The position numbers and the translations under genes are program-made. A stretch of DNA of 64,000 nucleotides from the sequence record NC_133255.1. One strand, 5' to 3'. The DNA comes from Escherichia phage vB_EcoS-26175I. The notes beneath the pieces are model-generated. The model was given only the letters and a program-made list of their open reading frames with translations. It was not told the DNA's origin and did no database searches. Shown in pieces: positions 6,621 to 59,103 of the stretch (position 1 is the first letter of the stretch; every line of letters begins with the position of its first letter).

Positions 6621-6621
6621 A

Positions 6622-14229: not shown

Positions 14230-14235
14230 AAATAT

Positions 14236-14312: not shown

Positions 14313-14320
14313 GCAGAAAT

Positions 14321-14397: not shown

Positions 14398-14404
14398 TTA
14401 AATT

Positions 14405-14676: not shown

Positions 14677-14952
14677 TTAGTCGAACTTAGGAGTGACAGT
14701 TAAGGAGAACGGAAGTTCAAAAACTTCTTCACCCTCATCACTAACAGTGATTACACGACCTTTAAGTTCAGACATTGAAATATCAATATCAGCTTTTGCA
14801 TCTGGAGCCATGCCAGCTTCAACACATTTAGCTTTAATTTCCGGCAGAAGTTCTACATCATAGAAATAAAGCCATTCAATCTCACCTTCCCAGCCTTCCC
14901 AGGATTTACAGATTGCACTTTCAATACCAGTTGTTATAACACGATTTTGCAT
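14677..14952 (-). CDS. hypothetical protein
   Basis: 91 aa ORF; promoter 14983-15012 upstream. Confidence 0.35.
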   Translation of the reverse strand: MQNRVITTGIESAICKSWEGWEGEIEWLYFYDVELLPEIKAKCVEAGMAPDAKADIDISMSELKGRVITVSDEGEEVFELPFSLTVTPKFD

Positions 14953-14982
14953 TCGTTAACTCCTTCATCAATTTATATAACT

Positions 14983-15012
14983 ATTATACCAGAAATTTAA
15001 AGCAAAAGGCAA
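14983..15012 (-). promoter_or_regulatory. sigma70-type early promoter
   Basis: conserved element upstream of 14677-14952. Confidence 0.5.
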
Positions 15013-15042
15013 GTACATTTTTAAAAATTCTGTTTGGAGGAG

Positions 15043-15249
15043 CTAAACTCCAGATTCTTCAGCCAGATCAAGCCCAACCAATGTGATTGCCATAATAGCC
15101 GCGCCATGTTCTTTCTCTCCTAGCTCTTTGGCTTGAGTGAGAATATTTAGGAACTGCTTGTGGAAATCTTCCACTTCTTCTGTCATGCCTGCTTCAGAAA
15201 TAATACCTTTCAGCATAAAGCGCTGTGCAGTAATTTCAGGATTAGCCAT
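15043..15249 (-). CDS. hypothetical protein
   Basis: 68 aa ORF. Confidence 0.3.
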   Translation of the reverse strand: MANPEITAQRFMLKGIISEAGMTEEVEDFHKQFLNILTQAKELGEKEHGAAIMAITLVGLDLAEESGV

Positions 15250-15400
15250 TTATTATCTCCAGTTATTTAGAATGTAAGCCAAACTTAGGATCATAGCGAT
15301 CATAAGTCGTACCATTAGTTGAAGTCTTGATGCTATGAAAACGACAGTACATAAATTTACGTAGTGCTTTCTTAATAGCTTTCATTTTATTTCCTTAATT

Positions 15401-15478
15401 TGGTAGGGGTGGTGGGATTCGAACCCACAAAACCTGAATTTTAAGTCCAGTACCTATGCCAATTCGATTACACCCCCA
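15401..15478 (-). tRNA. tRNA-Leu (anticodon TAA), short variable loop
   Basis: T-arm gtggg-attcgaa-cccac; loop ctTAAaa; type-I length is unusual for Leu. Confidence 0.5.
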
Positions 15479-15486
15479 TGTAATCT

Positions 15487-15834
15487 TTAGAGTTCGTAAC
15501 CCTGAATATATCGAGCAAAACCAGTAATCTCGAACTGAATTGCCCATGCTACTTCCATATGCTCAATCTTACTAAAATGAGCGTCAGACTGTTCTAGGAA
15601 ATAACGAGAGATTATAGGGAACTCAATGTCAAAATCTTCCTTATCCATACCATAGAAGAAGTTTCCAGAAATATTACGAACTTCACGAAAGAAATCCTCA
15701 ATCTGAAAATCCATCAGAGGATAAGTATATTCCTCTTTGCTATCATCCGTTTGGAAGAAGCGGAAATGCACAAGGCAAGAGCCAATCAGATTTACTGCTG
15801 GAGTAGTGTAAATATCCATGTTAACCTCGATCAA
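15487..15834 (-). CDS. hypothetical protein
   Basis: 115 aa ORF. Confidence 0.35.
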   Translation of the reverse strand: MIEVNMDIYTTPAVNLIGSCLVHFRFFQTDDSKEEYTYPLMDFQIEDFFREVRNISGNFFYGMDKEDFDIEFPIISRYFLEQSDAHFSKIEHMEVAWAIQFEITGFARYIQGYEL

Positions 15835-16006
15835 TATCTAGAGAAATTCCAAATTCTGGATTAATACCAGAACCATTACATGCTGCGCATTCCCACTCTT
15901 CAAAACGCATATCGCCAGGTTCAGCATCATTAATAGTACCTGTTCCATGGCAGTGAGTACACATGCACTCTTCTAGTTCTTGTTTAAGCTCTTGAAACTT
16001 AGACAT
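15821..16006 (-). CDS. small Cys-rich protein (two CxxC pairs)
   Basis: 61 aa; CTHCHGTG...CAACNGSG. Confidence 0.3.
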   Translation of the reverse strand: MSKFQELKQELEECMCTHCHGTGTINDAEPGDMRFEEWECAACNGSGINPEFGISLDIDRG

Positions 16007-16023
16007 ATAGTCTCCTAGTTAAT

Positions 16024-16102
16024 TGGTGGCTCCCGGAGGATTCGAACCTACCTACCTTTCGCTTATGAGGCGACGGCTCATACCAAATGAGCTTGAGAAC
16101 CA
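16024..16102 (-). tRNA. tRNA-Met (anticodon CAT)
   Basis: T-arm with attcgaa loop; D-arm gctc/gagc; loop ctCATaa. Confidence 0.55.
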
Positions 16103-16106
16103 AATT

Positions 16107-16196
16107 TGGAGGAAGAAGTGGGAATCGAACCCACAAGGCTATGTTTCAAACCGACAGATTAGCAATCTGCTGCAATACCGTTATGCTATTCTTCCT
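16107..16196 (-). tRNA. tRNA-Ser (anticodon GCT), long variable arm
   Basis: 87-nt body, perfect acceptor ggaagaa/ttcttcc, T-arm gtggg-aatcgaa-cccac; loop ttGCTaa. Confidence 0.7.
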
Positions 16197-16705
16197 TAAT
16201 TATTTCGGGCATATTCCCCATGAAGTTTCTCTCTCAGTTGAATTAGAGCTTCATTTGCTGCTTCAGGAGTACTGTGCAGCCCTGCGGAGTATGACTTACC
16301 TTTAAACATTATTCTATCCTGCCACTGACCAGATGCTTTGTGGTAGGATACTCCCTTAAATCCGCTAGTATTCCTAGAAGATTTACTAGCATTATGAGTA
16401 TTAGTGGTACTATCCGCTGCTCTTAAATTTAAAGGATGTATGTTTAACTTATTGCAGTCTTTATGATCAATCATTTCCGGCCTATACCCATAATATAGTA
16501 TAAATACTATGATATGAGCTAAGTAATCTTGGTGATCAACGTTAACTCTGATATACCCAGAGCTTTTGTGCAAAGATCCCGCAGGTTTATTGGCAAACTT
16601 AGTATTAAATATCTTCTCCTCTCTGGAGTTTCCGGAGAGCGGATTCCACACCAGTACACCATCTTCTAAACGGAATCTATAAAGTATAGACTCATAGTCT
16701 AGCAT
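16196..16705 (-). CDS. free-standing HNH homing endonuclease with AP2-like DNA-binding region
   Basis: 169 aa; IDHKDCNKLNIHPLNLRAA (HNH) followed by SGFKGVSYHKASGQWQ. Confidence 0.55.
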   Translation of the reverse strand: MLDYESILYRFRLEDGVLVWNPLSGNSREEKIFNTKFANKPAGSLHKSSGYIRVNVDHQDYLAHIIVFILYYGYRPEMIDHKDCNKLNIHPLNLRAADSTTNTHNASKSSRNTSGFKGVSYHKASGQWQDRIMFKGKSYSAGLHSTPEAANEALIQLREKLHGEYARNN

Positions 16706-16738
16706 AAATAGTTCCTAATCTTACAAATTTATGAATAT

Positions 16739-16767
16739 ATTATACAGAAAATTTCGGCATTAAGCAA
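16739..16767 (-). promoter_or_regulatory. sigma70-type early promoter
   Basis: attata 16739-16744, aagcaa 16762-16767. Confidence 0.55.
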
Positions 16768-16775
16768 GTGAAATT

Positions 16776-17072
16776 TTACTGAACATTGCACTGATATACC
16801 TGTTTGATACGTGTCACTGACTTCTTAGTTGGGTTGATAGAAGAACCCTGCCACCAACGTGATTCTGAGCTGAGAACAGCACCAGGAACAGCTTGTTCTT
16901 TTGGCAGAACAATATCAAAACACTGTTCACCCATATTATCTTTAATGTGCGACCAAATGTCTAGAGTAAATCGTTCTAGCTTATTACAAACTTGAACTTG
17001 ACAAAGTTCCTGTTGTGGAGCAGCAAATACAGAAGTAGATACTAGAGTCAATGCAAGTACAATGCGTTTCAT
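16776..17072 (-). CDS. secreted small protein (signal peptide)
   Basis: MKRIVLALTLVSTSVFAAPQ signal peptide; promoter 17103-17131. Confidence 0.35.
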   Translation of the reverse strand: MKRIVLALTLVSTSVFAAPQQELCQVQVCNKLERFTLDIWSHIKDNMGEQCFDIVLPKEQAVPGAVLSSESRWWQGSSINPTKKSVTRIKQVYQCNVQ

Positions 17073-17102
17073 ATTTGATTCCTCTCTCAAATTTATAAAT
17101 AT

Positions 17103-17131
17103 ATTATACAGAAATTTTCTATATTAAGCAA
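17103..17131 (-). promoter_or_regulatory. sigma70-type early promoter
   Basis: attata 17103-17108, aagcaa 17126-17131. Confidence 0.55.
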
Positions 17132-17139
17132 GTGAAAAT

Positions 17140-17170
17140 TTCTGTATAATAGCCCTCGCTTAGAGGGCTA
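17140..17170 (-). terminator. hairpin downstream of pnuC
   Basis: stem agccctc / gagggct, loop gctta. Confidence 0.4.
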
Positions 17171-17178
17171 TAGCTACT

Positions 17179-17871
17179 TTATTTGTTAACGCGTACAAAG
17201 TATCCTTTATAGGCTCCCATAATAGAGTTACCTAAGAATACTAGCCACATTGCTAGGATTGCATAAGATGCACCTGTAGATTGAGTAGTTACAAGCCAAA
17301 TGTACACAGTACCAATGTTAATAGCAATCCAGATCAGCCACTGCTCGGCATACTGCTTAACCATAAGCCACATAGCGATCACACTACCTACCGCAGTAAA
17401 TGCATCCAACATTGGGAATGGATCAGCCGTAGTAGCTAAGAAACTACCATACCCTAACGTGGCTACTGCTAGAATCCCTAGAGTCAGCAGAGCTTGGACT
17501 TTAGTCAGAATCTTAGTTGGAACATCTGGCAGATTACTTGGCTTATTTTTATGCCATAAGTACATTCCATAAAACTGCATAGGAACGTAGTATAGCAGGT
17601 TTAGTGCAGCGTTACCATAAAGATCTGCGTTTAAAGCTGTAATACCATAGGTAAGAACACCAACTAAGCCCCAAATATAGTTAGAAACACGTCCTTTAGC
17701 AACCAAAATAACACAAACTACGTTGGTTATCGCAGTAGCCCAATCTAGAGCTGTACCATTATAGTTTGCTAAACTAATAAAGGCGACTGCCATAAACAGC
17801 CACAGATATTCCAAAGGTTTCCAGTTTTTAAAGTCATTTACAAGATAGTTAGTCATATTAAAACTCTCCAA
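17179..17871 (-). CDS. pnuC: nicotinamide riboside transporter PnuC-like membrane protein
   Basis: 230 aa polytopic membrane protein, Trp-rich TM helices, immediately downstream of the NadR-like gene. Confidence 0.6.
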   Translation of the reverse strand: MESFNMTNYLVNDFKNWKPLEYLWLFMAVAFISLANYNGTALDWATAITNVVCVILVAKGRVSNYIWGLVGVLTYGITALNADLYGNAALNLLYYVPMQFYGMYLWHKNKPSNLPDVPTKILTKVQALLTLGILAVATLGYGSFLATTADPFPMLDAFTAVGSVIAMWLMVKQYAEQWLIWIAINIGTVYIWLVTTQSTGASYAILAMWLVFLGNSIMGAYKGYFVRVNK

Positions 17872-18913
17872 CGTTAAAGTGATGAATCAGCCAGTCTACT
17901 GCGTTTACTGCTTCGTCCATACGAACTTTGTAGTCCGGGGAGTCGATGTAAACAGTACGTCCTTCAGGGAACTGATTTGGAAATTCTTTCTTCATCTGCT
18001 CGAACAGTTCAGAAGTAATTGAACGATCGGAGTTAATACGTAAACCATCATCTACCCACTTGACAGTAGGCGCTAGAACAATTACTAAATCGTAATGTTC
18101 TTCTTTTGCAATTGCTGTAACCACAGGATTCTTACGATGTTCATAAAGTCTGTGGTAGAACTCAGTAATAAAAGCATTTGTATCCACAAACATGATCTTA
18201 TTTGCAGTACGTTCTGCTTCAAACTCTAGCTCTTTGTGTCTGAACGCAATTTTACTATAATCTTCGCTGGTAAGCAGATTTTCGTTACCAACTAGATCAA
18301 CTTCACAATACGTTCGACCATATTCTTCTACCCACGAAGTGTTGTATAGCTTCGCAAGGTATTTTGTTAAAGTAGTCTTTCCCGAGCTTTCAGTCCCAAT
18401 GAGTACAACCTTACGCACGTAATCTTTACGAACTACGCTAGGAAGAAACTCCCAATACTTCATAAGATCATTACGAATCATTGTAGCTGAGATTGGAACA
18501 CGAGTCCGATCAGAATCTACAATATAATGACCAAACTTCGGCAGATATTTCTTATATTCTGCATCATAGTCTAGTTCGCTAGAGAAAATGGTGATCTCAG
18601 GCAAATGTCCATAATTTTCATTAAGGATTCTAGCATATTCCGGCCAACCATTCGGATATTCAGGAATATCATCTTCAATAATGTACTCTACCGAAACGTG
18701 CTCAATATCCGCGTAAGTTTGTTCTAACCAACGAAGACGATTCTTTAACTGTAATACTTCCTGATCACGTGTGTTCTGCTTATCCAGCCAACGATTATCA
18801 TGACTAACTACAATAATAACTCGTTCACACATAGTTGCTGCTGTGTTTATTAGGTTAATATGACCACGCGTTAATGGTGCGAACTTACCAATTACTAGAC
18901 CAGTCTTAATCAT
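17858..18913 (-). CDS. nadR: NadR-like bifunctional NMN adenylyltransferase / ribosylnicotinamide kinase (no HTH domain)
   Basis: N-terminal nucleotidyltransferase motif GKFAPLTRGH; C-terminal Walker A GTESSGKTT; Met start at 18913 with SD and promoter 18944-18972. Confidence 0.75.
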   Translation of the reverse strand: MIKTGLVIGKFAPLTRGHINLINTAATMCERVIIVVSHDNRWLDKQNTRDQEVLQLKNRLRWLEQTYADIEHVSVEYIIEDDIPEYPNGWPEYARILNENYGHLPEITIFSSELDYDAEYKKYLPKFGHYIVDSDRTRVPISATMIRNDLMKYWEFLPSVVRKDYVRKVVLIGTESSGKTTLTKYLAKLYNTSWVEEYGRTYCEVDLVGNENLLTSEDYSKIAFRHKELEFEAERTANKIMFVDTNAFITEFYHRLYEHRKNPVVTAIAKEEHYDLVIVLAPTVKWVDDGLRINSDRSITSELFEQMKKEFPNQFPEGRTVYIDSPDYKVRMDEAVNAVDWLIHHFNVGEF

Positions 18914-18943
18914 GTTTGATTCCTCTCTCAAATTTATAAATAT

Positions 18944-18972
18944 ATTATACAGAGAATTTAGCATTCAAGCAA
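18944..18972 (-). promoter_or_regulatory. sigma70-type early promoter driving nadR-pnuC
   Basis: attata 18944-18949, aagcaa 18967-18972. Confidence 0.55.
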
Positions 18973-19110
18973 TCGAATTTTTAAACTTTTTAGTGGAAAA
19001 ATCTCAAGGCATTTAGTGGTAGCACGTTGTTGCTGCAATAATAGTATATGATTCTAAAGAATTAAATACTAAAGACCTTAGTTGAATAACTTATGGGATT
19101 TTCTTTTACC

Positions 19111-19152
19111 TTAAATACAGAAAAGCCCGCGCTCTCGGAGGAAACGCGGGCT
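19111..19152 (-). terminator. rho-independent terminator downstream of SPFH gene
   Basis: stem agcccgcg / cgcgggct followed on minus strand by tttctgtattt. Confidence 0.55.
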
Positions 19153-19176
19153 TGTTTCGAAGATTACGTGGAACTA

Positions 19177-20121
19177 TTACTTATTACGCATATCCATAAT
19201 CATTTGACCATCGTAGCCAGTACCGACAACAGTCTGCGGTACACCACCTTGGTATTTTTCAGCACGAAGCATTTCAACTTCCAGCTGCTTCCAACGAATC
19301 ATTTCAGGAGTAATGGTACGTTGCAGAGCGGCGTTAGCTTCAGCTTCTTTCTTAGCTGCGTACAGTTTAGCATCTGCGTCACGTTCGTTAGCTACTGCCA
19401 TGTTTTCACGAGCGGAACGATCTGCCTCAGCTTGCTTAACTTTCTGCTGTGCTTCTTGTTCAACACGAGCCAGTTCAGCTTTTGCAGCGTTAACTTGTTC
19501 TTCACGAACTTTAGTGTTCTGTACCTGTTCCATGATTACCGGTGGCAGAGTAATATCCTGAAGGAATACTTGCTTAACCGTGTAACCATAAGGACGCGCG
19601 TACTCTTCTACCTCTTGCTGAATAGCAGTTTGCAGTTGAGCCTGAATCTTAGCGTCGAACAGATCTTGTGCTTTTGGTACGGACTTACCAAACTCACGAA
19701 TCGTAGACAGCATCTTCTCTTCAACGTATTTGTTCAGAGCCTGATCCTGAGTACCTGCGTTAACACGGTTCATAGGAGCTTTAGCACCATCAAACTGCAA
19801 CATAACGGTAATGTCAACAGTAGACTTAAACTTATCCTGGCTAGGAACCTGAAGTTTATCCAGTTTCATGGAAATATCTTTCGTACTAAAAGTATCAAAA
19901 GAAGCAAATGGGTTAACAATATGGAAGCCTGGCAATACAGGATTAGGGCTAACTTTACCCAGGAAGGTTTGAGTCTTAACAGTACCATCCTGAACAACTG
20001 TATAGGAATTGAGAGCCAGAATAAGAGCACCAAGACCAACAGCAGCACCAACACCCCAACGTTTAATAGTACGAATTACTTTTTGCTCAGAAGTCAGTTC
20101 TTTAGTGTTTTTAGTAAACAT
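19177..20121 (-). CDS. SPFH/band-7 (prohibitin/HflC-like) membrane protein
   Basis: N-terminal TM, SPFH-like core, C-terminal Ala/Glu/Gln-rich coiled coil; terminator hairpin 19111-19152 downstream. Confidence 0.65.
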   Translation of the reverse strand: MFTKNTKELTSEQKVIRTIKRWGVGAAVGLGALILALNSYTVVQDGTVKTQTFLGKVSPNPVLPGFHIVNPFASFDTFSTKDISMKLDKLQVPSQDKFKSTVDITVMLQFDGAKAPMNRVNAGTQDQALNKYVEEKMLSTIREFGKSVPKAQDLFDAKIQAQLQTAIQQEVEEYARPYGYTVKQVFLQDITLPPVIMEQVQNTKVREEQVNAAKAELARVEQEAQQKVKQAEADRSARENMAVANERDADAKLYAAKKEAEANAALQRTITPEMIRWKQLEVEMLRAEKYQGGVPQTVVGTGYDGQMIMDMRNK

Positions 20122-20132
20122 ATATTTCCTTA

Positions 20133-20333
20133 TTATTTAGAAGAGTTATCTACTACAGTTACTTTAGTTGCAGAAATAAATAGGCTAGCATCCACAGCAA
20201 ATTCAGGAGCTTTGATATCTCCATTATGAAATATGACTATACCGGAGACTACTTCAAATGCTAGTGCTGTAACATCGGTGGTCTTTAGTTGTGAATGTTC
20301 ACCTACTACTTTTACTATATATCGTGTTTTCAC
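20133..20333 (-). CDS. hypothetical protein
   Basis: 66 aa ORF. Confidence 0.3.
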   Translation of the reverse strand: MKTRYIVKVVGEHSQLKTTDVTALAFEVVSGIVIFHNGDIKAPEFAVDASLFISATKVTVVDNSSK

Positions 20334-20359
20334 TTTATTTTCCTAGCAGTTAATAAAAT

Positions 20360-20434
20360 TGGCCGAGGTGACAGGATTCGAACCTGCATAAAGGAATTTA
20401 GAAGACTCCTGCCTATCCCTTAGACTACACCCCG
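20360..20434 (-). tRNA. tRNA-Arg (anticodon TCT)
   Basis: T-arm acagg-attcgaa-cctgc; anticodon stem ggaat/actcc (one GU); loop ctTCTaa. Confidence 0.65.
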
Positions 20435-20442
20435 AGAATAAA

Positions 20443-20952
20443 TTACTTAATGATTTCGTTCAGTTTGGTTTGGCTTTCTAGCGCTGCTTTAGCTGATTTC
20501 TCAGCATCCCTAGCAGCACGTCGTGCTTTAGAGTCAATCAATAGCTTGTCATACTTGATATTAACGAACTCTTTAATATCATGGTAGAAACGTTGATGTG
20601 CCATGTATTCTTGTGCATCTGCATCGTAACAGCGCATATAGAAGTAATCACTAGGCTCTCCACGAAGTGTACGCTCTAGAATCTGAGGTCGATAACGACG
20701 TAATGTATCTTTCGCCATTTTTATTTCATCAGTTTCTTCACCAAGCTGAACTAGGTGATAAAGACGAGTATTGTCGATGTAATCCAAAGCTACGCTAAAG
20801 TATTCACCTTCTCGAAGATTGTATCCTGTAATCTCACTCATTTTCTCACGAGCTTGATCAAGTGTCAGGCGTTCTGGAAAATGTGCTATATGCAGAATAC
20901 GAGGGCAACACATTTCTTGATGATCAAAGATACAAGTTGTTCCTAGATTCAT
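20443..20952 (-). CDS. hypothetical protein
   Basis: 169 aa ORF downstream of the 1-kb ORF-poor region. Confidence 0.4.
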   Translation of the reverse strand: MNLGTTCIFDHQEMCCPRILHIAHFPERLTLDQAREKMSEITGYNLREGEYFSVALDYIDNTRLYHLVQLGEETDEIKMAKDTLRRYRPQILERTLRGEPSDYFYMRCYDADAQEYMAHQRFYHDIKEFVNIKYDKLLIDSKARRAARDAEKSAKAALESQTKLNEIIK

Positions 20953-21921
20953 ATTGATTCCTTTTGTTAGGTATTTTTAAGAACTCTCGTAAAAGTCCTT
21001 AAAGATACCCGGCGGTAGGTAGGGTCAGCCCCCTCAGATTAAGCTCTGCAGCCCTTCCGTCAGACAATATCTTCCAGTTTAAGTCAGGGTGACTTTGTGG
21101 TTATTCAGCTAAGGCTGATCGGCAGCTCTTAGGTCATGACTCCTCGTCGCTCTTTACTCACCGGCTAGGAAGTTATCTCGAGTTCTTCCTAGCTCTTTAG
21201 TCGTGCCATTAAGGTGCCTTCTAAGAGACTTACCTTTTCCCACTTTCGATTTGGGCATGTATCAGGTAAGGGTAGCCAAATCAGCATCCTAGTCCTACGG
21301 GGTCTCATCAAATTACATACCACCGCTTTTCGATATGTAATGCCCATGTCTATACGGGAGAAGAAAATGGGCATCTTTCTCTTCGTCTGATAGCTTGAAA
21401 AACGACTCCTCATGGAGGAAAAACTTCACTATCTAGGCTAAAGCCTAAAGTTCTTCTTTAATCCGGCAAAGCAAAACCGTAGTATATACTTTTCAGGAAT
21501 GGTTGGTTAGTCTGGAACCAACTACCGCGTGGTTTTGGCAGTGCACAGCTGCCTGCGATTGCTTCGCCATTAGAAGCACCAGTTATCCAACTCTTTCCGA
21601 CCGTGGGACTCGAACCCACATCTTCAGGCGGTGAAGCCCTAATAATACCTATTATACTAGGACGGCAGTGTTGTTACATAAGTGGTTTCGGCACCCCACT
21701 AACATAAACTAGAGAAGAGTTTACGAGATTTCGGGACAGCTCCCGAGTTTTCCGCAGATTTTCAGTTCCCTATCAATAGCAATAAGCGTTAGCTCGTAGC
21801 CTCTCTCAGAGTACTTACTAGTCTCCAACTCACCGACTCTATTCAGTGGAATAGCTATCCTAGTAGGAGTCACTAAACTCACTCAGCGTAATCGGCTCGC
21901 TGTTCTCTAATTTATGAATCT

Positions 21922-23405: not shown

Positions 23406-23434
23406 AATAGCCTCGTCTCATCAATTTAAAAATA

Positions 23435-23464
23435 TATTATACAGATAATTAAACTGTTTTGCAA
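23435..23464 (-). promoter_or_regulatory. sigma70-type early promoter
   Basis: attata 23435-23440, ttgcaa 23459-23464. Confidence 0.5.
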
Positions 23465-23845
23465 ATACATTTTTAGATTGAGAGAACTAGTAAACCGATA
23501 AACAGCCTAGAGGCGCCACAGGCCATATCTTATGAGCCATGTACCTTTGATCTAGGGTTTGAATCATCAACGAATACTTTGCATCTTTTAGCTTTAGAAG
23601 GTTAGAAGTTTGAGTGCTTTTAACTTTTCAGCTTTCATACTTGAGCGTTGATCTTTGAAGTTGTGTTGGTACTACCAACGACCGTTTTTACAGTTCAGCT
23701 TAAGAGGCTGGTGTAATAAACATAATCTCCAATAGATTATACTTTATAGTATGGTCAGCGGTCTTATTTAACCTCGTATTTCAACCGCTGCTGCGAGGTA
23801 AGATGCTTGGGCTTTCGTCTACCGATTTACTAGTCTTTTAAATTA

Positions 23846-39175: not shown

Positions 39176-39361
39176 ATGGTGAAGAAGATTTTTAAGGGTA
39201 TCTGGAAAGGTCTAGTATGGTTTGTCAACCTAATTGGTATGATTACCATTTATTCTCTGTTCCTATCTGTTATGTGGGGTAAAGGTGAACTGAAGGTTCC
39301 GGTTCCTTTTACTAATGAAGTTAAAGTCTGGACGTGGGATGCTACTGGTGGAAATAAGTAA
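39176..39361 (+). CDS. small membrane protein
   Basis: 61 aa with one TM helix. Confidence 0.3.
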   Translation: MVKKIFKGIWKGLVWFVNLIGMITIYSLFLSVMWGKGELKVPVPFTNEVKVWTWDATGGNK

Positions 39362-39854
39362 TACTCCTGTGATTTTCCTGGATATTGATGGGGTGCTCAA
39401 TTCGAGCATCTCTCACCATCATGCTCCAGATAATGAAAAGCTGTTCTTTGGCAGTGATTGGGTTTATAAACCGTTACTCCAGGCTTTTCAGAACTTCCTT
39501 AAACCTTCTCCAATAATGATTGTTGGGGTATCTTCATGGTTTTCTGTACGAAACGAGATGGAGAACGTTCAGATTATGACCGGGCTCGGTTTGATCGATC
39601 GTTTTCTTGGTACAACAGATTTTACTGGTGGCGGTTTATCTCGTGGTAATTCTGTCTTACGTTTCGTAGAAAAACATAAGCTCAAGCATTGGTGCGTCCT
39701 AGATGATGCTGGTGCTATGATGTATCAATTTCCTACTGTTATTGTAAATGGCAGGACTGGAATAAACTTTCAAGATTTAAATGCTATCAGCTATACGCTG
39801 GAATTTAGTCCAGATCTTGAAATGTGTAAGGCTCTTCAGAAACTCAAGGTGTAG
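39339..39854 (+). CDS. HAD-superfamily phosphatase (possible nucleotidase)
   Basis: HAD motif I FLDIDGVLN near N-terminus. Confidence 0.5.
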   Translation: MLLVEISNTPVIFLDIDGVLNSSISHHHAPDNEKLFFGSDWVYKPLLQAFQNFLKPSPIMIVGVSSWFSVRNEMENVQIMTGLGLIDRFLGTTDFTGGGLSRGNSVLRFVEKHKLKHWCVLDDAGAMMYQFPTVIVNGRTGINFQDLNAISYTLEFSPDLEMCKALQKLKV

Positions 39855-39856
39855 AT

Positions 39857-40285
39857 ATGTTCGATAATCTTTTCATGAAAGAGGTAAACCCTATGCTTCT
39901 CAACTTCTGGCGTTCTCTCCCTAATGGTATGTACAATGAAACCATCAATCTGCTTAAGATTTGGTGTGAGAATAACGATATCTTCTTATCCTTTAAAGGC
40001 CCACTAGAGGAAGCTCCGTGTATTGGAGTTAGTGTGGATTTAGGGGAGGGAGTAGAAGAAATTGTGGACTGGAAAGAACTCGATGAAATGGGTCTGGTTT
40101 TTGCCTTGAACCATAAGCTGTTTATGCCTGCAAATCACCGTCTTATTGTAAATTATCGCACTGGTGAAGCTCCTGCTTTCCAGGTAAATGAACGTGAGGG
40201 CTGGTCATATTCGCCCGAGGAAGTAAATGAGGGGATTCAGAAACTTCGTCGTTTCGGGTATATGATCCCAGGTTTAACTGCTTAA
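39857..40285 (+). CDS. acidic protein, tandem paralog A
   Basis: shares W-EL--MGL--ALN...TGE-P...PGL pattern with next ORF. Confidence 0.4.
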   Translation: MFDNLFMKEVNPMLLNFWRSLPNGMYNETINLLKIWCENNDIFLSFKGPLEEAPCIGVSVDLGEGVEEIVDWKELDEMGLVFALNHKLFMPANHRLIVNYRTGEAPAFQVNEREGWSYSPEEVNEGIQKLRRFGYMIPGLTA

Positions 40286-40294
40286 GGAGGCAGA

Positions 40295-40690
40295 ATGGAA
40301 CAAGTATTTTGGCGTCAGATAGATCCTAGTTTGGTAGAGCGTGCTGAAGGGCTCCTTGCACGTTGGTTGGGGGTTGACAAGGTTAGTGTAACATTTCCGT
40401 TTACTTCTGTAACAGACCCTAGTGTAGGTGTCTTTGTGGACGAAGATGAAGATGATGGTTGGGAAGCTGACTGGAATGAATTGTCCAGCATGGGCTTGAT
40501 TGTTGCCCTCAACTTCTCTATATTCCATCCACGTGGCTTAGCCATTACACGTGACCCCGAGACTGGTGAATCCCCTTATCTTTTGCAAGTAGAAGATGAT
40601 ATTTGGGAGTACACCGAAGATATTCTCGAAGAAGCTAAAGGTCAATTAAATCTCATTGGAATCTATGTCCCAGGCCTAAATGTTGATTGA
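40295..40690 (+). CDS. acidic protein, tandem paralog B
   Basis: paralogous to 39857-40285; terminator-like hairpin downstream. Confidence 0.4.
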   Translation: MEQVFWRQIDPSLVERAEGLLARWLGVDKVSVTFPFTSVTDPSVGVFVDEDEDDGWEADWNELSSMGLIVALNFSIFHPRGLAITRDPETGESPYLLQVEDDIWEYTEDILEEAKGQLNLIGIYVPGLNVD

Positions 40691-40781
40691 TTTTCATTAG
40701 TTCAATCCTGATTACCGAGTCATTTTGGCTCGGTTTTCTCCGTGCTCAAAGACACTGATAGCACCTTCGGAAAAATTTTAC

Positions 40782-40810
40782 TTGCAGGATGCTCAAAATC
40801 TTGGTATAAT
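40782..40810 (+). promoter_or_regulatory. sigma70 promoter with extended -10 (TGgTATAAT)
   Basis: ttgcag 40782-40787, tataat 40805-40810; followed by ~590-nt leader. Confidence 0.55.
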
Positions 40811-41402
40811 ATTTATATTGAATTGAGAGACATTAGTAAAAATTGATTTTGCTAATTTTTCTTAATGAAGCTGACAATGGATTTACGGCGAGAGCGATCG
40901 ATGACCCGTAAATAGCTGCATAAGGTACGTTGCTAGAGCTTTATGAAAAAGTTTTTCTTGTTTACAATCCGCAATACGGAACAGTTAGGCTGCCCCATTA
41001 AAGGTTGTTTTAACTATTACTAGTGTTTATACTGCATTAGTTAATTATCAATTAAGTGATCTGCGTACCCTGAATTCGGAAAGGTAAATCCAAACCGTGC
41101 ATATTTAGCTCGTTATATAGGCAGAGCTTTATATGGGGGTGCGAACGAAAAGAGCAGCGAATGGTGACACGTCCAGTAGCCACCTACCAATAGGATAGTG
41201 AGGGCAATCAGAATCGGCTTAGCGGCCAATGACCTAGGTTCTGATCTGGATAAGAGTTAAGAGAGCGCAGCACTGAGGTATGATAACTTATTCATACTGC
41301 TTGATGATGATTAATGTTTGTGTAAATGGTAGTAATAGTTGTTCTATTCTTTTGAATAGTCCTAAAGAAAGATATCCGAATAACCAACATAGGAGTATTG
41401 TT

Positions 41403-44192
41403 GTGTTCTCAATCCTACAAGGTCACGCAGGATTTTCCAGAGATAAAGCCACTGGCATCTGGAAAGAGATCAAAGTGGAAGATTACACCTTTGCAAAGCG
41501 ATTCTCTAAAGAGCATCCAGAAGGTAAACCAGCTTCCATGCCCTTCAAATTTGACGTACTTGAAGAACTTGACCCGCAAAACCTTGCTGAAATGTTACCT
41601 ATCATGCGTCGTCTTACCAAAGATCCGCATATTGTAGCTATTCGTGGTAAATGTCTAGCTCCAAAAGATAATGTGCGTCGTACCAGAGGAAACTTTAACG
41701 TATCCAATCCTAGTCATATTATTGCTATGGACGTGGATGGTATTGTAGATACTGGTGGCTATGACAAGTTTAATCTTGTTGGCATGGCACGTCATATTAT
41801 TAAGATGTTGAATAGTATTAGTGAGGATATGTTTCCTCTTGATGCAGGGTTTATTGCCCATGCATCGTCTTCGGCTGGATTAAAACCAGGTATCCGAATG
41901 CACTTAATGCTAGAATCTAATGTCAAGGTAACGCAGGGACAGTTAAAGTTCTTATTTACATCTATCAATGATAGTAGTAAGCAAAAGTACGGCTTTGATA
42001 TTGCTGACTTAGCTTATTATTCTTCTGTTCAGCTTCACTATTTCGCAGATCCCTTATTTGATGATGGTATAGTCGATCCGTTTAAAGCGGAGAATAAACC
42101 ACGTCTTGTGTATGTTAAGGGTTCGAAGGTGAATCTACCTAATAACCTAGTTGACTTTGAGACAACTAGAGGTGAGTTTAAAGAAGAATTCTATTCCTTA
42201 CTTGACCAAATTAAAGGCAAGAAGGCTGCATCTGATAAAGTGGAAGAAACCATCAGCGAACTAGAAGAAGCTGAGGATGGAGTGTACCTGCGTATTATCC
42301 CAAAGCTGTATCACAGAGCATTGGAAGATGGTGTGGACTTCGCATGGTTAGAAAAGGAGATTAAACCAGCCTTATCTGAGTATATTGCAACTAAGGATAA
42401 TAGTCGTAACATTCAAGATTACTTTAATAACGGTCGTAAGCAGGCTCTCAAAGCCTTTGTAAATAACTCCAAACGTGAGATTCCACCAAACTTAAAAGGT
42501 GTACCATTAAAACGTCTAGATACAGATTCACCACCAGAAGTTCCATACCTGAAAATTAACATTGTACCACCAAAAGGACATTTAACATTTGTTAAGGCAA
42601 GTCTTGGTACGGGTAAAACTACAGCAGTAACTAAGTGGCTAGATGCAGGTGTTCTTCCAGGAAACTTTATTGCAATCACGAATACTAGGGCACTTGTATC
42701 TTCAAACGCGAAGAAATTCAGTGCTGGCCAGTATGATAAGTCAGTTGATATGCTAAACTTCAAACGTGGTGCTATTGATCGTATGTCTTCAACTATTCAC
42801 TCTATCCATAAGTTCAAGAGCTTTGTGGGTCAGATTGATACGATCTTTATTGATGAATGTGATGCAGTAATGAATGATCTGTTATTCGCTCCGGTTGTTA
42901 AAAACCGTCGTGAATGTATTCAGGTTCTTCGTGATATCCTTATTACTGCTAAAACTGTTATCTTATCTGATGGTGATATCAGTGCAGAAACGATTGAAGC
43001 CTATGGTTCTTTGATTGATTTTGATAAACCAGTTGCATTCTATAATCATCACCGTAAAATGCTGGCGAAAGCTCACGCTTATGAATTCCCTGACGAATCC
43101 AGTATTTGGGTTGCACTTCAAACATCTCTAGAGATGGGGGAGAAGTCAATCCTAGTATCTGACTGTGGACCGGATGAACTGAATGAAAAGGGAATGGCGT
43201 TACGTCGTAATACTGGTGCGTTAGTTAAAGAAATTCACTCAAACTCTACATCTGATGTAGATATCCGACGTATTCTGGATTATACAACTAATGAGCTAAT
43301 TGATCAACAGATTGATTGTTTGTTATGTAGTCCATCTGTAACGAGTGGTGTTGACTTTAACTATTTTGATAACGTATTCGTAATCACTAGAACCTCAAAC
43401 CAAGCGCCAAACATGCGTTTCCAAGCAATCAGGCGCGACCGTGGTGCTCAGAATATCTATTACTTCATTGATAAGTCTACAAGTGGATTTTCTGCGGGTT
43501 CCGAGCAGTATAATATTGATGAAGGTTGGATTGAGTTAGCCCAACAACTGTACGCACGTCGTCGTGAGCTGGAATCTAAAAACTATACTAGTACTTTGCG
43601 TTATTATCTACTTGATCAGGGTGCAACTATTGATATTTTCAGTGAAAGCTGGGGAACTATCGAAGGTGCAGGCAAAGAGTATACAGAAGAGCGAATCAAA
43701 GCTATTTTGTACTCAACTCCTGAATATTGCGCACCACGTCATGCAGATGCCTATGAAGCCAAGATACTTCTGGTTCGCTATTATCATCTGGATTCTATTA
43801 AAGATGTAACAGTGGAACACGTTGAACAGTATATCAAGGATAAACCGAATGATCGAGCTGCATTTTTCCATAAGATGCACGAGATGTTCTGGGAAGATAT
43901 TAAAAAGTGTTCAAACGTAACAATCAAACCGTTTATCGAAGCTCTTAAGAATAAGAAGAAGGATTTCTTCCTTAAGACAGGTCAGAGCGCTAACCCAAAA
44001 TATGCTCGTATGTATCTTGGCATGATGGGTATCGGTAAAGATCTGGATACGGAAAAGATTGTGGACTGGTACAGAACTTACTGTAAGATCGAATGTATGC
44101 CGATTCCAGTTAAGTTTATGACAGATGAAGAACGTCAGATGCATGAGGAAGCTCTTGCTGAATTGGGAGCTAGAAATGACAGTGAAGAATAA
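41403..44192 (+). CDS. large P-loop NTPase/helicase-like replication protein
   Basis: Walker A ASLGTGKTTAV and Walker B IFIDECD; probable GTG start at 41403 after SD AGGAG (longest ORF begins 41280). Confidence 0.55.
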   Translation: MFSILQGHAGFSRDKATGIWKEIKVEDYTFAKRFSKEHPEGKPASMPFKFDVLEELDPQNLAEMLPIMRRLTKDPHIVAIRGKCLAPKDNVRRTRGNFNVSNPSHIIAMDVDGIVDTGGYDKFNLVGMARHIIKMLNSISEDMFPLDAGFIAHASSSAGLKPGIRMHLMLESNVKVTQGQLKFLFTSINDSSKQKYGFDIADLAYYSSVQLHYFADPLFDDGIVDPFKAENKPRLVYVKGSKVNLPNNLVDFETTRGEFKEEFYSLLDQIKGKKAASDKVEETISELEEAEDGVYLRIIPKLYHRALEDGVDFAWLEKEIKPALSEYIATKDNSRNIQDYFNNGRKQALKAFVNNSKREIPPNLKGVPLKRLDTDSPPEVPYLKINIVPPKGHLTFVKASLGTGKTTAVTKWLDAGVLPGNFIAITNTRALVSSNAKKFSAGQYDKSVDMLNFKRGAIDRMSSTIHSIHKFKSFVGQIDTIFIDECDAVMNDLLFAPVVKNRRECIQVLRDILITAKTVILSDGDISAETIEAYGSLIDFDKPVAFYNHHRKMLAKAHAYEFPDESSIWVALQTSLEMGEKSILVSDCGPDELNEKGMALRRNTGALVKEIHSNSTSDVDIRRILDYTTNELIDQQIDCLLCSPSVTSGVDFNYFDNVFVITRTSNQAPNMRFQAIRRDRGAQNIYYFIDKSTSGFSAGSEQYNIDEGWIELAQQLYARRRELESKNYTSTLRYYLLDQGATIDIFSESWGTIEGAGKEYTEERIKAILYSTPEYCAPRHADAYEAKILLVRYYHLDSIKDVTVEHVEQYIKDKPNDRAAFFHKMHEMFWEDIKKCSNVTIKPFIEALKNKKKDFFLKTGQSANPKYARMYLGMMGIGKDLDTEKIVDWYRTYCKIECMPIPVKFMTDEERQMHEEALAELGARNDSEE

Positions 44193-58125: not shown

Positions 58126-59103
58126 ATGAGAATACTATTTAGTGCTGATCATCATATCAAATTAGGACAAGATAAAGTTCCAAAGGAATGGCAAAAGCGT
58201 CGCTTCCTGATGCTAGGAGAACGGTTAAATGACATATTCCATAATCATAACTGTGATCTGCATATTGCTGGTGGTGATATTCTTGATGTTGCCGACCCAT
58301 CGTCGGAAGAAATAGAACTTCTTGAACAGTTCATGTCAAGACTTGACCATCCAGGCAAGATCTTCACTGGTAACCATGAAATGTTAACTAAAACTATTTC
58401 ATGTCTATATCATTATGCAGGAGTTATTAATAAAGTAACAAACGGAAATTGGGAAGTCATTACTAAACCATATCGTTCTCCTGAATTTGATATTATCCCT
58501 TATGATGAAATCCACAAACCAAAGTGGAAACCATCTGAATCAAAATTATGTTTCACGCATGTTCGTGGTGAAATCCCCCCACATGTAAAACCAGAGATTG
58601 ATCTAACTAGGTATAACTGTTATGACACTGTAGTTGCTGGCGATTTACATTCTTATACTAATAGTCAAACTGTTGGTTCTACTAGACTTCTTTATCCAGG
58701 ATCTCCATTAACTACATCGTTCCACAGAGAACGCACAAAAGGTACAAATGGTTGTTTTATCATTGATACCGACACATTAAAAGTAGAGTGGATTGAACTT
58801 GGTGACTTACCACAACTGATTCGTAAAACAATCGGAGTTGGTGAGGAAATGGAGCCTAGTGACTATGACCGTGTAATTTATGAAGTCACTGGTGACGTCG
58901 TTCAGTTAAAGTCTATTAAAGATTCCGATCTCTTAGATAAAAAGATTAACCATCGAGTTACTAAAGATGCTAAGCTAAATCTTGTTGATCTTGATATGTT
59001 AGGCGAGCTTGAGCTTTACTTCCGTGAAGTTGAAAAGCTGTCTCAAGGCGACATTGATAGAATCTTGGCTAGAGCTGCTAAATATGTCAAAGATTATAAT
59101 TAA
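58126..59103 (+). CDS. sbcD: SbcD/Mre11-like nuclease
   Basis: phosphoesterase motif MRILFSADHH...GGDILD...GNHE. Confidence 0.75.
   Translation: MRILFSADHHIKLGQDKVPKEWQKRRFLMLGERLNDIFHNHNCDLHIAGGDILDVADPSSEEIELLEQFMSRLDHPGKIFTGNHEMLTKTISCLYHYAGVINKVTNGNWEVITKPYRSPEFDIIPYDEIHKPKWKPSESKLCFTHVRGEIPPHVKPEIDLTRYNCYDTVVAGDLHSYTNSQTVGSTRLLYPGSPLTTSFHRERTKGTNGCFIIDTDTLKVEWIELGDLPQLIRKTIGVGEEMEPSDYDRVIYEVTGDVVQLKSIKDSDLLDKKINHRVTKDAKLNLVDLDMLGELELYFREVEKLSQGDIDRILARAAKYVKDYN

What the first reader, a model, noticed from the sequence alone, without database searches (positions are those of the whole stretch)
40691..41402. Roughly 590-nt untranslated leader upstream of the large helicase-like gene
A strong extended -10 promoter (40782-40810) is followed by only a 16-codon mini-ORF and then ~500 nt with no convincing coding capacity before the probable GTG start at 41403. 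Long structured leaders before replication genes can hold regulatory RNA structures or a replication origin.
Basis: seen in the sequence. Interest (0 to 1): 0.45.

Follow-up and report, generated by a model that had tools for sequence, protein, structure and literature searches.

The report
Large structured RNA leader before T5 helicase
The long gap in front of the T5-type phage "origin-binding" helicase gene is a real untranslated leader that folds into a large, evolutionarily conserved RNA structure matching no catalogued RNA family, so it is a good candidate for an undescribed regulator or cofactor of phage DNA replication.

Summary
The window is a T5-like phage (100% identical to Escherichia phage vB_EcoS-26175). 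Positions 40691-41402 are non-coding and form the largest ORF-free stretch of the 64 kb. A T5-type early promoter (TTGCAG-17-TGgTATAAT, 40782-40810) precedes them, and the helicase/"origin-binding protein" (OBP) gene starts at GTG 41403, not at ATG 41280. The 16-codon mini-ORF lies in an optional 96-nt insert that T5 itself lacks.

The about 450 nt from 40952 to 41402 form a conserved RNA fold on the sense strand. In 38 distinct sequences of six sequence types, 95.7% of cells in 54 curated pairs are paired, and 19 pairs show compensatory changes (8.5±1.6 in shuffles, 3-5 in slid controls).

The fold has these parts:
- an almost invariant 5' hairpin domain;
- a 35-45 bp AU-rich helix closing a roughly 310-nt module;
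- an invariant CUUAGCGG hairpin loop;
- a hairpin over the start codon.

The module has been swapped between phage lineages as a cassette. Rfam has no match. There are no iterons, no excess of DnaA boxes and no skew switch at the leader. Function is not established. My best guess is a cis-acting protein-binding leader of the OBP mRNA (about 0.35). The rivals are an origin or primer RNA and an independent non-coding RNA.

The parts
40714..40739 (+). Terminator-like hairpin (ACCGAG-N9-CTCGGT followed by TTTCT) that ends the upstream operon (T5.107 homologue, 40295-40690)
   Evidence: Read directly from the sequence. T5 annotates a rho-independent terminator at the homologous site, 58952-58976. 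The scan tool missed it because the loop is 9 nt.
40782..40810 (+). T5 early-type sigma-70 promoter: -35 TTGCAG, 17-nt spacer, extended -10 TGgTATAAT. The predicted transcription start is about 40815-40817, followed by the TTGAGAG box.
   Evidence: Sequence. T5 annotates a promoter at 58999-59073. The block is conserved in all 15 intergenic regions aligned. Query positions 179-231 also match Klebsiella phage DNA at other, unannotated loci, consistent with a shared promoter-type sequence.
40831..40867 (+). AU-rich hairpin at the 5' end of the transcript (arms 40831-40844 and 40854-40867)
   Evidence: Inverted repeat I2. The homologous hairpin is annotated as 'terminator' in the Stitch and Shivani records. 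It consists only of A-U pairs, so it is probably not an efficient terminator.
40864..40959 (+). Optional 96-nt insert flanked by TTTTTCTT direct repeats (40856-40863 and 40952-40959). It contains the 16-codon mini-ORF (40865-40915).
   Evidence: Present in some members of sequence types A, B and C and absent from T5, Stitch and others. There is a single copy per genome.
40960..41010 (+). P2 domain: nested hairpin (ACAAUCC/GGGUUGU, GAU/AUU, GG/CC, CAGU/GCUG) carrying the invariant AUACGGAACAGUnnGGCUGCCCCAU
   Evidence: Covariance model R1 gives 76.7 bits (E = 6e-17), the only hit in the window. It gives one hit each in the Klebsiella, My1 and L048-type phages. The motif is unique in the window. 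Pair counts are (helix 1, 97.3% paired).
41011..41055 (+). P3, 5' strand of the long AU-rich helix (about 38 bp in this phage)
   Evidence: Minimum-free-energy and alifold structures. In the P3 base, 6 of 12 pairs show compensatory changes. Along the full helix, tested on 5'-strand + GAAA + 3'-strand constructs, 10 of 22 pairs do. Inverted repeat I1.
41302..41341 (+). P3, 3' strand of the long AU-rich helix
   Evidence: Same as for the 5' strand.
41056..41066 (+). P4, 5' strand (GUGAUCUGCGU)
   Evidence: 7 of 9 pairs carry compensatory changes and 98.8% of cells are paired.
41265..41273 (+). P4, 3' strand (GCGCAGCAC)
41021..41331 (+). Exchangeable central module (distal P3, P4, a multi-helix core with P8, and P9). 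Its sequence is highly divergent between types but its architecture is kept.
   Evidence: Sliding identity and topology counts. T5 versus B-type phages are 93-100% identical in the flanks and 33-60% in the module. Stitch-like versus T5 are 59-85% identical in the flanks and 95-96% in the module.
41207..41245 (+). P8 hairpin: outer helix AUCAGAAUC/GGUUCUGAU, inner GGCU-UAGC-GGCC (41216-41227) and a 3' internal loop
   Evidence: CUUAGCGG is invariant in all 38 sequences. The outer helix has a different but complementary sequence in every type. Compensatory changes occur within type A at alignment columns 313/349 and 314/348. Related hairpins lie upstream of OBP in L088 and in Aeromonas phages.
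41275..41300 (+). P9 hairpin (GAGGUAUGA/UCAUACUGC). The ATG at 41280 lies in its 5' strand.
   Evidence: There is a compensatory G-C to A-U change within type A (columns 383/402) and a U-A to G-C change within type B (columns 384/400).
41344..41359 (+). P10 hairpin (CUAUUC-UUUU-GAAUAG)
   Evidence: helix 5 (94.3% paired). Klebsiella phages have CUAUC/GAUAG.
41386..41407 (+). Hairpin AACAUAG/UUGUGUU that pairs the GUG start codon (41403-41405). The Shine-Dalgarno sequence AGGAG (41391-41395) lies partly in its loop.
   Evidence: helix 6 (95.9% paired; column 498/512 shows CG:29, UG:5, UA:2, where the start codon changes from GUG to AUG together with its partner). The unpaired probability of the start codon is 0.01-0.19 in Markadamsvirinae types.
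41403..44192 (+). Gene served by the leader: a 929-aa UL9-like SF2 helicase annotated as 'replication origin binding protein' (T5.108 homologue)
   Evidence: Pfam Herpes_ori_bp gives E = 3.6e-5 over residues 391-533. There is a weak PDB match to a herpesvirus origin-binding protein.

Best explanation
WHAT IT IS (shown; confidence about 0.9). The region is the 5' leader of the OBP (T5.108-type helicase) mRNA, transcribed from a strong T5 early promoter. From 40952 to the start codon it folds into a large, conserved, sense-strand RNA structure made of:
- an almost invariant 5' hairpin domain (P2);
- a 35-45 bp AU-rich helix (P3) that closes an autonomously folding module of about 310 nt (P4, a multi-helix core, the P8 hairpin with the invariant CUUAGCGG loop, and P9);
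- a small hairpin (P10);
- a hairpin that pairs the GUG start codon.

HOW IT MOST LIKELY WORKS (inferred; confidence about 0.35). It acts in cis as a protein-binding regulatory platform on the OBP mRNA. Strong early transcription produces much leader RNA. Translation of OBP is intrinsically poor, because the start codon is GUG and is paired. A phage factor, most simply OBP itself, recognises the invariant loops (AUACGGAACAGU..GGCUGCCCC and CUUAGCGG) and sets how much OBP is made. RNase III may also cut the long P3 duplex and so alter the mRNA.

Steps shown: promoter, gene start, absence of coding capacity, the fold and its covariation, the paired start codon, and module exchange. Steps inferred: protein binding, the identity of the factor, any RNase III cleavage and the regulatory outcome.
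For: Identity and layout:
- The window is 100% identical to Escherichia phage vB_EcoS-26175 (Demerecviridae).
- T5 has the same order of terminator, promoter, about 470-nt leader and gene.

Structure:
- RNAalifold on 38 distinct sequences of six types predicts 45 pairs, 24 of them with compensatory changes.
- For the curated 54-pair structure, 95.7% of cells are paired. 19 pairs have changes on both sides, against 8.5±1.6 in 500 shuffles (0 of 500 reach the observed value) and 3-5 when partners are slid. The covariation score is 0.168 against at most 0.063.
- In P3, 10 of 22 pairs are compensatory.
- Within-type variation is compatible with the fold. Type A has 147 pairs, 7 compensatory, 19 one-sided and only 5 with any non-canonical cell; type B has 145 pairs, 6 compensatory, 14 one-sided and 6 with any non-canonical cell.
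- The MFE z-score is -4.9 for the whole leader and -3.6 for the core, against -1.9 for the antisense strand.

Link to the gene:
- The distance from the P2 motif to the start codon is 406-432 nt in all types.
- The stretch from P10 to the ribosome-binding site is nearly invariant.
- The start-codon hairpin is conserved, with GUG/CAY changing to AUG/CAU, and the start codon is mostly paired in the ensemble.
- In Shivani the homing-endonuclease gene, and in HildyBeyeler, ESCO40 and Th1 an extra small ORF, sit upstream of the promoter, not between the RNA and OBP.

Not coding: no ORF is shared between types.
Against: - The large domain does not change the predicted accessibility of the Shine-Dalgarno sequence (full leader versus truncated).
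- The long-range pairing of the 5' U-rich strand with the Shine-Dalgarno sequence, or with AAAGAAA, is no better than shuffled controls. Direct sequestration of the ribosome-binding site by the big fold is therefore not supported.
- In the L088/L089 lineage (OBP 66% identical), a second perfect 12/12 promoter lies 40 nt before the OBP start, downstream of the structured stretch. In Aeromonas phage TS3, a terminator-like hairpin lies between the structured stretch and OBP (sequence). In those phages the RNA need not be in cis with OBP.
- RNA module type does not clearly co-segregate with OBP sequence type, which is not what a tight OBP-RNA specificity pair predicts.
- A fold of about 450 nt is far larger than known translational operators.
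Confidence: 0.35

Rival explanations
1. Replication-origin RNA. The strong promoter drives a transcript whose fold promotes a persistent R-loop, a primer or a loading site next to the initiator gene. OBP (a UL9-like helicase) would load on the RNA-DNA hybrid or on hairpins of the displaced sense DNA strand. This is analogous to ColE1 RNA II, to T4 oriF/oriG and to T7 primary-origin transcription.
For: - The element stays next to the OBP gene across Demerecviridae even where the sequences cannot be aligned. The gap is 598 nt in Klebsiella IME260, 590 nt in My1, about 710 nt in Vibrio Athena, 1101 nt in Vibrio JSF10 and 1590 nt in Aeromonas TS3.
- It persists where OBP has its own promoter (L088).
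- Hairpins with a UUAGCGG loop occur in one to three copies, only on the sense strand and only upstream of OBP, as initiator-binding sites would.
- No T5 origin sequence turned up in the searchable literature.
- From memory, not checked here: electron microscopy placed a primary T5 origin near the genome centre, and the T5 leader lies at 48.4-48.9% of the genome.
Against: - There are no iterons and no excess of DnaA boxes.
- The cumulative GC-skew minimum is at about 35-36 kb, not at the leader.
- The promoter scan lists no antisense (minus-strand) promoter inside the leader, such as a ColE1-type control circuit would need.
- Selection on an extensive fold with G-U pairs is not expected if the RNA works as a hybrid with DNA.
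- More distant OBP homologues have short upstream gaps (L102, L103, L106, L108).
Confidence: 0.25
2. Independent non-coding RNA. The P3-closed module is released, for example by RNase III cutting the long duplex, or is transcribed on its own. It would act in trans as a scaffold, decoy or ribozyme, for instance in host takeover or anti-defence. Its position before OBP would be historical.
For: - The module is an autonomous folding unit closed by a 35-45 bp duplex.
- It is exchanged between lineages as a cassette and diverges very fast in sequence while keeping its architecture, as expected under an arms race.
- L088 has separate promoters, and TS3 has a terminator-like hairpin before OBP.
- Its size and complexity resemble those of large ornate RNAs, which are often carried by phages.
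Against: - In the 38 sequences of the six aligned types examined here, no promoter or terminator was seen between the fold and the OBP start, and the spacing is constant.
- The most conserved parts (P2 and the P10-to-RBS stretch) lie outside the module.
- There is no match to any known ribozyme or large RNA family.
- Synteny with OBP is kept over very large evolutionary distances.
Confidence: 0.25
3. The region encodes unannotated small proteins, or the OBP gene really starts upstream (ATG 41280 or 41307), so there is no long leader.
For: - An ORF runs in frame from ATG 41280 in this phage.
- One record starts the gene at 41307.
- The PMBT29 record annotates three small ORFs in its leader.
Against: - No ORF is conserved between types, and in T5 the homologous ATG ORF stops after 26 codons.
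- There are 1-nt indels within 41280-41402.
- Protein homology to distant relatives begins at residue 1 of the GTG 41403 product.
- The substitution pattern is compensatory pairing, not codon-like.
- The mini-ORF lies in an optional insert.
Confidence: 0.03

Closest known systems
ColE1-type plasmid pre-primer RNA II
   Same: Both are structured RNAs of about 500 nt made from a strong promoter, placed next to the replication machinery, whose fold matters for function. Both lack iterons.
   Different: The promoter scan lists no antisense (minus-strand) promoter within the leader, so there is no sign of an RNA I-type antisense transcript. No G/C-rich hybrid anchor was seen. This RNA runs straight into a protein-coding gene. 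There is no sequence or Rfam similarity. R-loop formation was not tested.
Autogenous translational operators of phage replication proteins (T4 gp43, gp32, RegA targets)
   Same: Both are RNA structures at the ribosome-binding site of a replication gene. Here a conserved hairpin pairs the start codon, and the start codon is the weak GUG.
   Different: Those operators are 20-40 nt long. Here about 450 nt of conserved fold precede the ribosome-binding site, and the fold is not predicted to change its accessibility. Protein binding was not tested.
RNase III-processed phage leaders (lambda N leader, T7 early mRNA R sites)
   Same: Both have a long double-stranded helix in an early phage transcript just downstream of a strong promoter. 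P3 is longer than the roughly 20 bp needed for RNase III.
   Different: P3 encloses a module of about 250-310 nt with its own conserved architecture, instead of being a simple processing hairpin. Cleavage was not tested.
Large ornate non-coding RNAs often carried by phages (GOLLD, ROOL)
   Same: Both are large (over 400 nt), have many helices supported by covariation, are phage-borne and have unknown biochemical function.
   Different: There is no match to their Rfam models, even at E = 10 over the leader. This RNA is a 5' leader fixed upstream of one gene family, instead of lying near tRNA genes.
Herpesvirus oriS and the UL9 origin-binding protein
   Same: The downstream gene is the only weak homologue of UL9. 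From general knowledge, UL9 recognises a hairpin conformer of its origin, and here conserved hairpins lie next to the gene.
   Different: oriS is a compact AT-centred palindrome with repeated UL9 boxes in duplex DNA. Here there is no repeated box in T5-like phages (one CUUAGCGG copy) and the constraint covers about 450 nt of single-strand fold.

Membership tests
Any Rfam 15 family (riboswitches, T-box, ribozymes, RNase P, tmRNA, group I/II introns, GOLLD, ROOL, OLE, HEARO and others) | A covariance-model match at or near the family's gathering score | tested here: not met
   The gathering-threshold scan of the window finds only tRNAs. An E≤10 scan of 40500-41600 gives one meaningless 12.6-bit hit. 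Scans at E≤1 of nine related loci give nothing in the leaders. ARAGORN finds no tmRNA or tRNA in the leader.
Riboswitch or attenuator leader | An expression platform: an intrinsic terminator, or sequestration of the Shine-Dalgarno sequence that alternates with the aptamer fold | tested here: not met
   No terminator lies between the fold and the gene. Long-range anti-SD pairing is no better than shuffles. SD accessibility is unchanged by the large domain.
Riboswitch or attenuator leader | A slowly evolving ligand-binding core | tested here: inconclusive
   P2 and the CUUAGCGG loop are invariant, but most of the core is only 33-60% identical between types.
Iteron or DnaA-box replication origin | Repeated initiator-binding sites (iterons or DnaA boxes) | tested here: not met
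   No direct-repeat family has more than two short copies. DnaA-box-like matches number 77 against 77 expected.
Iteron or DnaA-box replication origin | A strand-composition switch at the origin | tested here: not met
   The cumulative GC-skew minimum is at about 35-36 kb, where gene orientation flips, and not at 40.7-41.4 kb.
ColE1-type primer RNA origin | An antisense regulator RNA promoter, a persistent RNA-DNA hybrid and an RNase H cut at the origin | tested here: inconclusive
   The promoter scan lists no minus-strand (antisense) promoter within the leader. Hybrid formation and cleavage cannot be tested with these tools.
RNase III-processed leader | A double-stranded RNA helix of about 20 bp or more | tested here: met
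   P3 has 38 pairs in this phage and 24-38 in the other types, with covariation.
RNase III-processed leader | Cleavage in vivo that depends on rnc | not testable with these tools
   This needs RNA end mapping in wild-type and rnc hosts.
Translational operator at the ribosome-binding site | A conserved structure overlapping the Shine-Dalgarno sequence or the start codon | tested here: met
   A 7-bp hairpin pairs the start codon, with 95.9% of cells paired and the partner changing when GUG becomes AUG. The unpaired probability of the start codon is 0.01-0.19.
Translational operator at the ribosome-binding site | Binding of the encoded or a cognate protein | not testable with these tools
   The co-segregation test of RNA module type against OBP type gave a mosaic, inconclusive picture.
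The proposed new family itself (Demerecviridae OBP-leader RNA) | A P2 domain with AUACRGAACAGUnnGGCUGC, a long P3 helix, P4 and a P8 CUUAGCGG hairpin, lying 406-432 nt before the OBP start | tested here: met
   The window has all of these features. Model R1 hits once per genome in Markadamsvirinae, Sugarlandvirus, Myunavirus and the L048 type, and gives no hit in L088, Vibrio or Aeromonas phages. Of those three, only L088 and the Aeromonas phages keep a P8-type hairpin upstream of OBP; L088 also folds with a long closing helix around it, and the Vibrio phages lack the UUAGCGG motif.

The most novel reading that the evidence does not exclude
The leader is the founding member of a new class of large structured RNAs (about 450 nt here, up to about 700-1500 nt in other Demerecviridae). 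These RNAs would be dedicated cofactors of the UL9-like helicase and would define the long-sought T5 replication origin. In this reading the origin is specified by an RNA fold (or by the identical fold of the displaced sense DNA strand in an R-loop) with the UUAGCGG hairpin as the helicase loading site. The exchangeable module would set initiator or defence-escape specificity.
Probability: 0.2. Interest if true: 0.85.

Novelty: new variant of a known kind. Interest (0 to 1): 0.62.

Why it matters
T5 is a classical model phage, and its relatives are widely isolated for therapy. Several hundred related genomes are in the public collection searched here. Even so, I found no description of its replication origin sequence or of the control of its initiator helicase. 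None of the records examined annotates the 600-700 nt in front of that gene as anything other than a promoter, a putative terminator or doubtful small ORFs.

Finding a fold of about 450 nt there, supported by covariation and absent from Rfam, gives a concrete and testable object for two questions: how T5-type phages start or time DNA replication, and what large structured RNAs do in phages.

The cassette-like swapping of the central module between otherwise near-identical phages is unusual for an RNA element. It hints at specificity or arms-race pressure.

On the practical side, the work also corrects the gene start in several database records and flags small ORFs annotated in this region as probably spurious.

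Tried and rejected
- **Known RNA family.** Four Rfam scans at gathering and permissive thresholds, plus ARAGORN, found nothing in the leader.
- **Resemblance to RNase P.** I noticed ACAGAAC..GGCUUA.CGG, which recalls RNase P CR-IV/V. I dropped it because there is no Rfam hit and no GAGGAAAGUC-type core.
- **Long-range anti-SD pairing.** RNAalifold proposed pairing between the 5' U-rich strand and the Shine-Dalgarno sequence. The duplex energies are not better than shuffles, and type-specific folds prefer a different partner, so I treat the closing helix as unresolved.
- **P3 as terminal inverted repeats of a MITE-like mobile element.** I rejected this as the main reading because the mismatches are G-U only (sense-strand specific), the helices inside the module also covary, and the element always sits at the same locus. 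The 96-nt insert with an 8-bp direct repeat is single-copy.
- **A second GCTTAGCGGC at 49859 (minus strand).** It lies antisense inside a coding gene and has no hairpin, so it is a chance match.
- **DNA-level origin signals.** Iterons, DnaA boxes and GC skew were all negative.
- **More sequence diversity from metagenomes.** About six of the 41 IMG/VR pattern hits were also chance.
- **Structure-aware alignment.** mafft-qinsi was unavailable. MAFFT could not align the 3' strand of P8 across types, so the P8 outer helix is documented per type instead of by column counts.
- **Co-variation of module type with OBP sequence.** The result was mosaic and inconclusive.
- **Literature.** Eight searches found no description of this leader or of a mapped T5 origin sequence. 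The Davison preprint concerns a different non-coding region, in the terminal repeat.
Full report
**Source and layout.** The window is a T5-like phage. The 901 bases around the finding are 100% identical to Escherichia phage vB_EcoS-26175 II-V (Demerecviridae, Epseptimavirus) and match 519 phage records at 77-100% identity. The finding lies between the homologue of T5.107 (40295-40690) and the homologue of T5.108. T5.108 is a 929-aa protein annotated as 'replication origin binding protein', also called DNA primase C or D1. Its only domain signal is a weak match to the herpesvirus UL9 helicase. The T5 reference record has the same order: a terminator at 58952-58976, a promoter at 58999-59073 and the gene at 59545.

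**Checking the observation.**
- 40691-41279 is the longest stretch of the 64 kb without an ORF of at least 50 aa on either strand.
- The promoter reads TTGCAG, 17 nt, TGgTATAAT (40782-40810). It is conserved, together with a downstream TTGAGAG box, in every relative aligned. The consensus scan skipped it only because its -35 hexamer matches 3 of 6.
- A terminator-like hairpin (40714-40739) closes the upstream operon.
- The gene start is GTG 41403. Most records use it. Protein homology to the Klebsiella and Pectobacterium phage proteins starts at residue 1. The start codon lies 406-432 nt after a conserved 5' motif in all types.
- The in-frame ATG at 41280 is not conserved as a start. In T5 it opens a 26-codon dead-end ORF, and single-base indels occur downstream of it.
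- The 16-codon mini-ORF (40865-40915) lies in a 96-nt segment bounded by TTTTTCTT repeats. This segment is present in some phages and absent in others, including T5.

**A conserved RNA fold.** I collected 38 distinct versions of the leader from GenBank phages and IMG/VR. They fall into six sequence types:
- A: this phage and T5;
- B: HildyBeyeler, SP3 and others;
- C: Yersinia phage phiR2-01;
- D: Klebsiella Sugarlandvirus;
- E: Pectobacterium phage My1;
- F: an IMG/VR genome.

The flanks are almost invariant, whereas the centre is so different between types that it barely aligns. Even so, the same helices can be drawn in each type.

The statistical support is as follows:
- RNAalifold on all 38 sequences gives 45 pairs, 24 with compensatory changes.
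- A curated set of 54 pairs that are in register across types (P2, P3 base, P4, P8 inner, P10 and the start-codon hairpin) is paired in 95.7% of cells.
- In that set, 19 pairs change on both sides, against 8.5±1.6 in shuffles (0 of 500 reach the observed value) and 3-5 when the partners are slid by 1-3 columns.
- P4 is the clearest helix, with 7 of 9 pairs compensatory.
- The long AU-rich helix P3 (38 pairs here) has 10 of 22 compensatory pairs when its two strands are joined and aligned.
- Within types A and B, nearly all variation is compensatory or wobble-compatible.
- The P8 outer helix has a different complementary sequence in every type, around an invariant GGCU-UAGC-GGCC.
- The sense strand folds better than its shuffles (z = -3.6 for the core and -4.9 for the whole leader), and the antisense strand does not do so clearly (z = -1.9).
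- The non-Watson-Crick pairs are G-U. The structure therefore belongs to the transcript, or to the identical sense DNA strand.

**Not a known family.** Rfam 15 has no match at any threshold tried, in this window or in nine related loci. Eight literature searches found no description of the leader.

**Anatomy in window coordinates.**
- AU-rich hairpin: 40831-40867.
- Optional insert: 40864-40959.
- P2 domain: 40960-41010. Model R1 scores it at 76.7 bits, the only hit in the window.
- P3: 41011-41055 paired with 41302-41341.
- P4: 41056-41066 paired with 41265-41273.
- Multi-helix core, with P8 at 41207-41245.
- P9: 41275-41300.
- P10: 41344-41359.
- Start-codon hairpin: 41386-41407. It pairs GUG with CAY. 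When the start is AUG, as in Klebsiella phages, the partner is CAU.

**The module is exchanged as a cassette.** T5 and B-type phages are 93-100% identical for more than 1 kb upstream, and again in the 3' part of the OBP gene and beyond. They are only 33-60% identical across 41021-41331. Conversely, Stitch-like phages and T5 are 59-85% identical upstream but 95-96% identical in the module. Site-pattern counts show the same switch of topology exactly over the module. The break points fall at paired positions of P3, so the unit exchanged is the P3-closed domain. The OBP gene itself is a mosaic and does not cleanly follow the module type.

**Breadth across the family.**
- Every Demerecviridae lineage I first looked at has a long gap before OBP: 598 nt in Klebsiella phage IME260, 590 nt in My1, about 710 nt in Vibrio phage Athena, 1101 nt in Vibrio phage JSF10 and 1590 nt in Aeromonas phage TS3.
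- Vibrio phages show the same pattern of conserved islands around a divergent centre.
- The P2 motif is confined to the T5, Klebsiella and My1 clades.
- Hairpins with a UUAGCGG loop and strong flanking helices also occur upstream of OBP in L088 and in Aeromonas phages. There are two well-supported copies each in TS3 and L112 (TS3 has a third, weakly flanked copy of the motif), and their stems differ between the two phages. They are found only on the sense strand and nowhere else in 165 kb examined.
- L088 folds with a long closing helix around that hairpin. It has two perfect promoters, one before the structured stretch and one 40 nt before OBP.
- Some very distant OBP homologues have short gaps, so the element is not universal.

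**Mechanism.** DNA-level origin signals are absent: no iterons, no excess of DnaA boxes, and a skew minimum 5 kb away at the flip in gene orientation. Direct control of the ribosome-binding site by the large fold is not supported either. The proposed anti-SD pairing is no better than chance, and predicted SD accessibility is the same with or without the domain. The start codon is mostly paired by its local hairpin.

My ranking is therefore tentative:
- a cis-acting, protein-binding leader that sets OBP synthesis (0.35);
- an origin or primer RNA working with OBP (0.25);
- an independent RNA released from the leader (0.25);
- coding or mis-annotation (0.03).

That the region is a conserved structured RNA I hold at about 0.9.

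**Verdict.** The element appears to be an undescribed RNA family in a classical phage, of unusual size and with an unusual modular mode of evolution.

Noticed in passing
window 23430-23845 (- strand): A second large ORF-free stretch (416 nt) outside the tRNA cluster. It folds well on the minus strand (z = -4.2) and is closed by a long-range helix. It ends in a T5-type promoter (TTGCAA-17-TATAAT) pointing leftwards. It is conserved at 90% or more in 438 phage records, with nothing annotated between two hypothetical genes. It may be another structured non-coding element.
   Followed up: partly
window 40856-40959: A 96-nt presence/absence polymorphism bounded by 8-bp TTTTTCTT direct repeats, which resembles a target-site duplication or a slippage deletion. 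It is found in some members of three different leader types, as a single copy per genome, and is 94-100% identical between copies. It contains its own hairpin (AUUUACGG...CCGUAAAU).
   Followed up: partly
window 6463-21667 (- strand): A cluster of 31 tRNA genes. One of them has a UCA anticodon, and ARAGORN calls it tRNA-SeC (21594-21667; Rfam tRNA, 33 bits). It could be a UGA-reading suppressor-type tRNA.
   Followed up: no
L088 2205-2233 and 2935-2964 (IMGVR_UViG_2974547928, OBP 66% identical): Two perfect 12/12 sigma-70 promoters. One lies before a structured non-coding stretch of about 700 nt that includes a CCACG..GCCUUAGCGGGU..CGUGG hairpin. The other lies immediately before the OBP start. 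In this lineage the RNA can therefore be a separate transcription unit.
   Followed up: partly
L105 about 2226-2425 and 2626-2775 (IMG/VR contig, OBP 33% identical): The region upstream of OBP carries two tandem copies of a unit of about 90 nt and two copies of a unit of about 40 nt (GTTTAACCCGAGGATTATTGTATCTGTAATATGGTAAACC). These are iteron-like repeats, and the T5-like phages lack them.
   Followed up: no
window 39315-40690: The genes just upstream of the leader encode a HAD domain of 'Swiss Army Knife' RNA-repair proteins (39315-39851) and two DUF7415 proteins (39857-40282 and 40295-40687). Relatives annotate Sir2-like genes further upstream.
   Followed up: no
L004 1731-2183 (Shivani); L003, L006 and L013, about 1584-1778: A homing-endonuclease (HNH) gene, or an extra small ORF, is inserted between the T5.107 homologue and the leader promoter in some relatives. 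In these examples the insertion never falls inside the structured RNA or between it and OBP.
   Followed up: partly
Database records MK907269 (start equivalent to window 41307), OQ680478, MN026741 and PP554579: Gene-start calls for the OBP gene are inconsistent between records, and PMBT29 annotates three small ORFs inside the leader. Comparative data favour GTG 41403 and no coding in the leader.
   Followed up: yes
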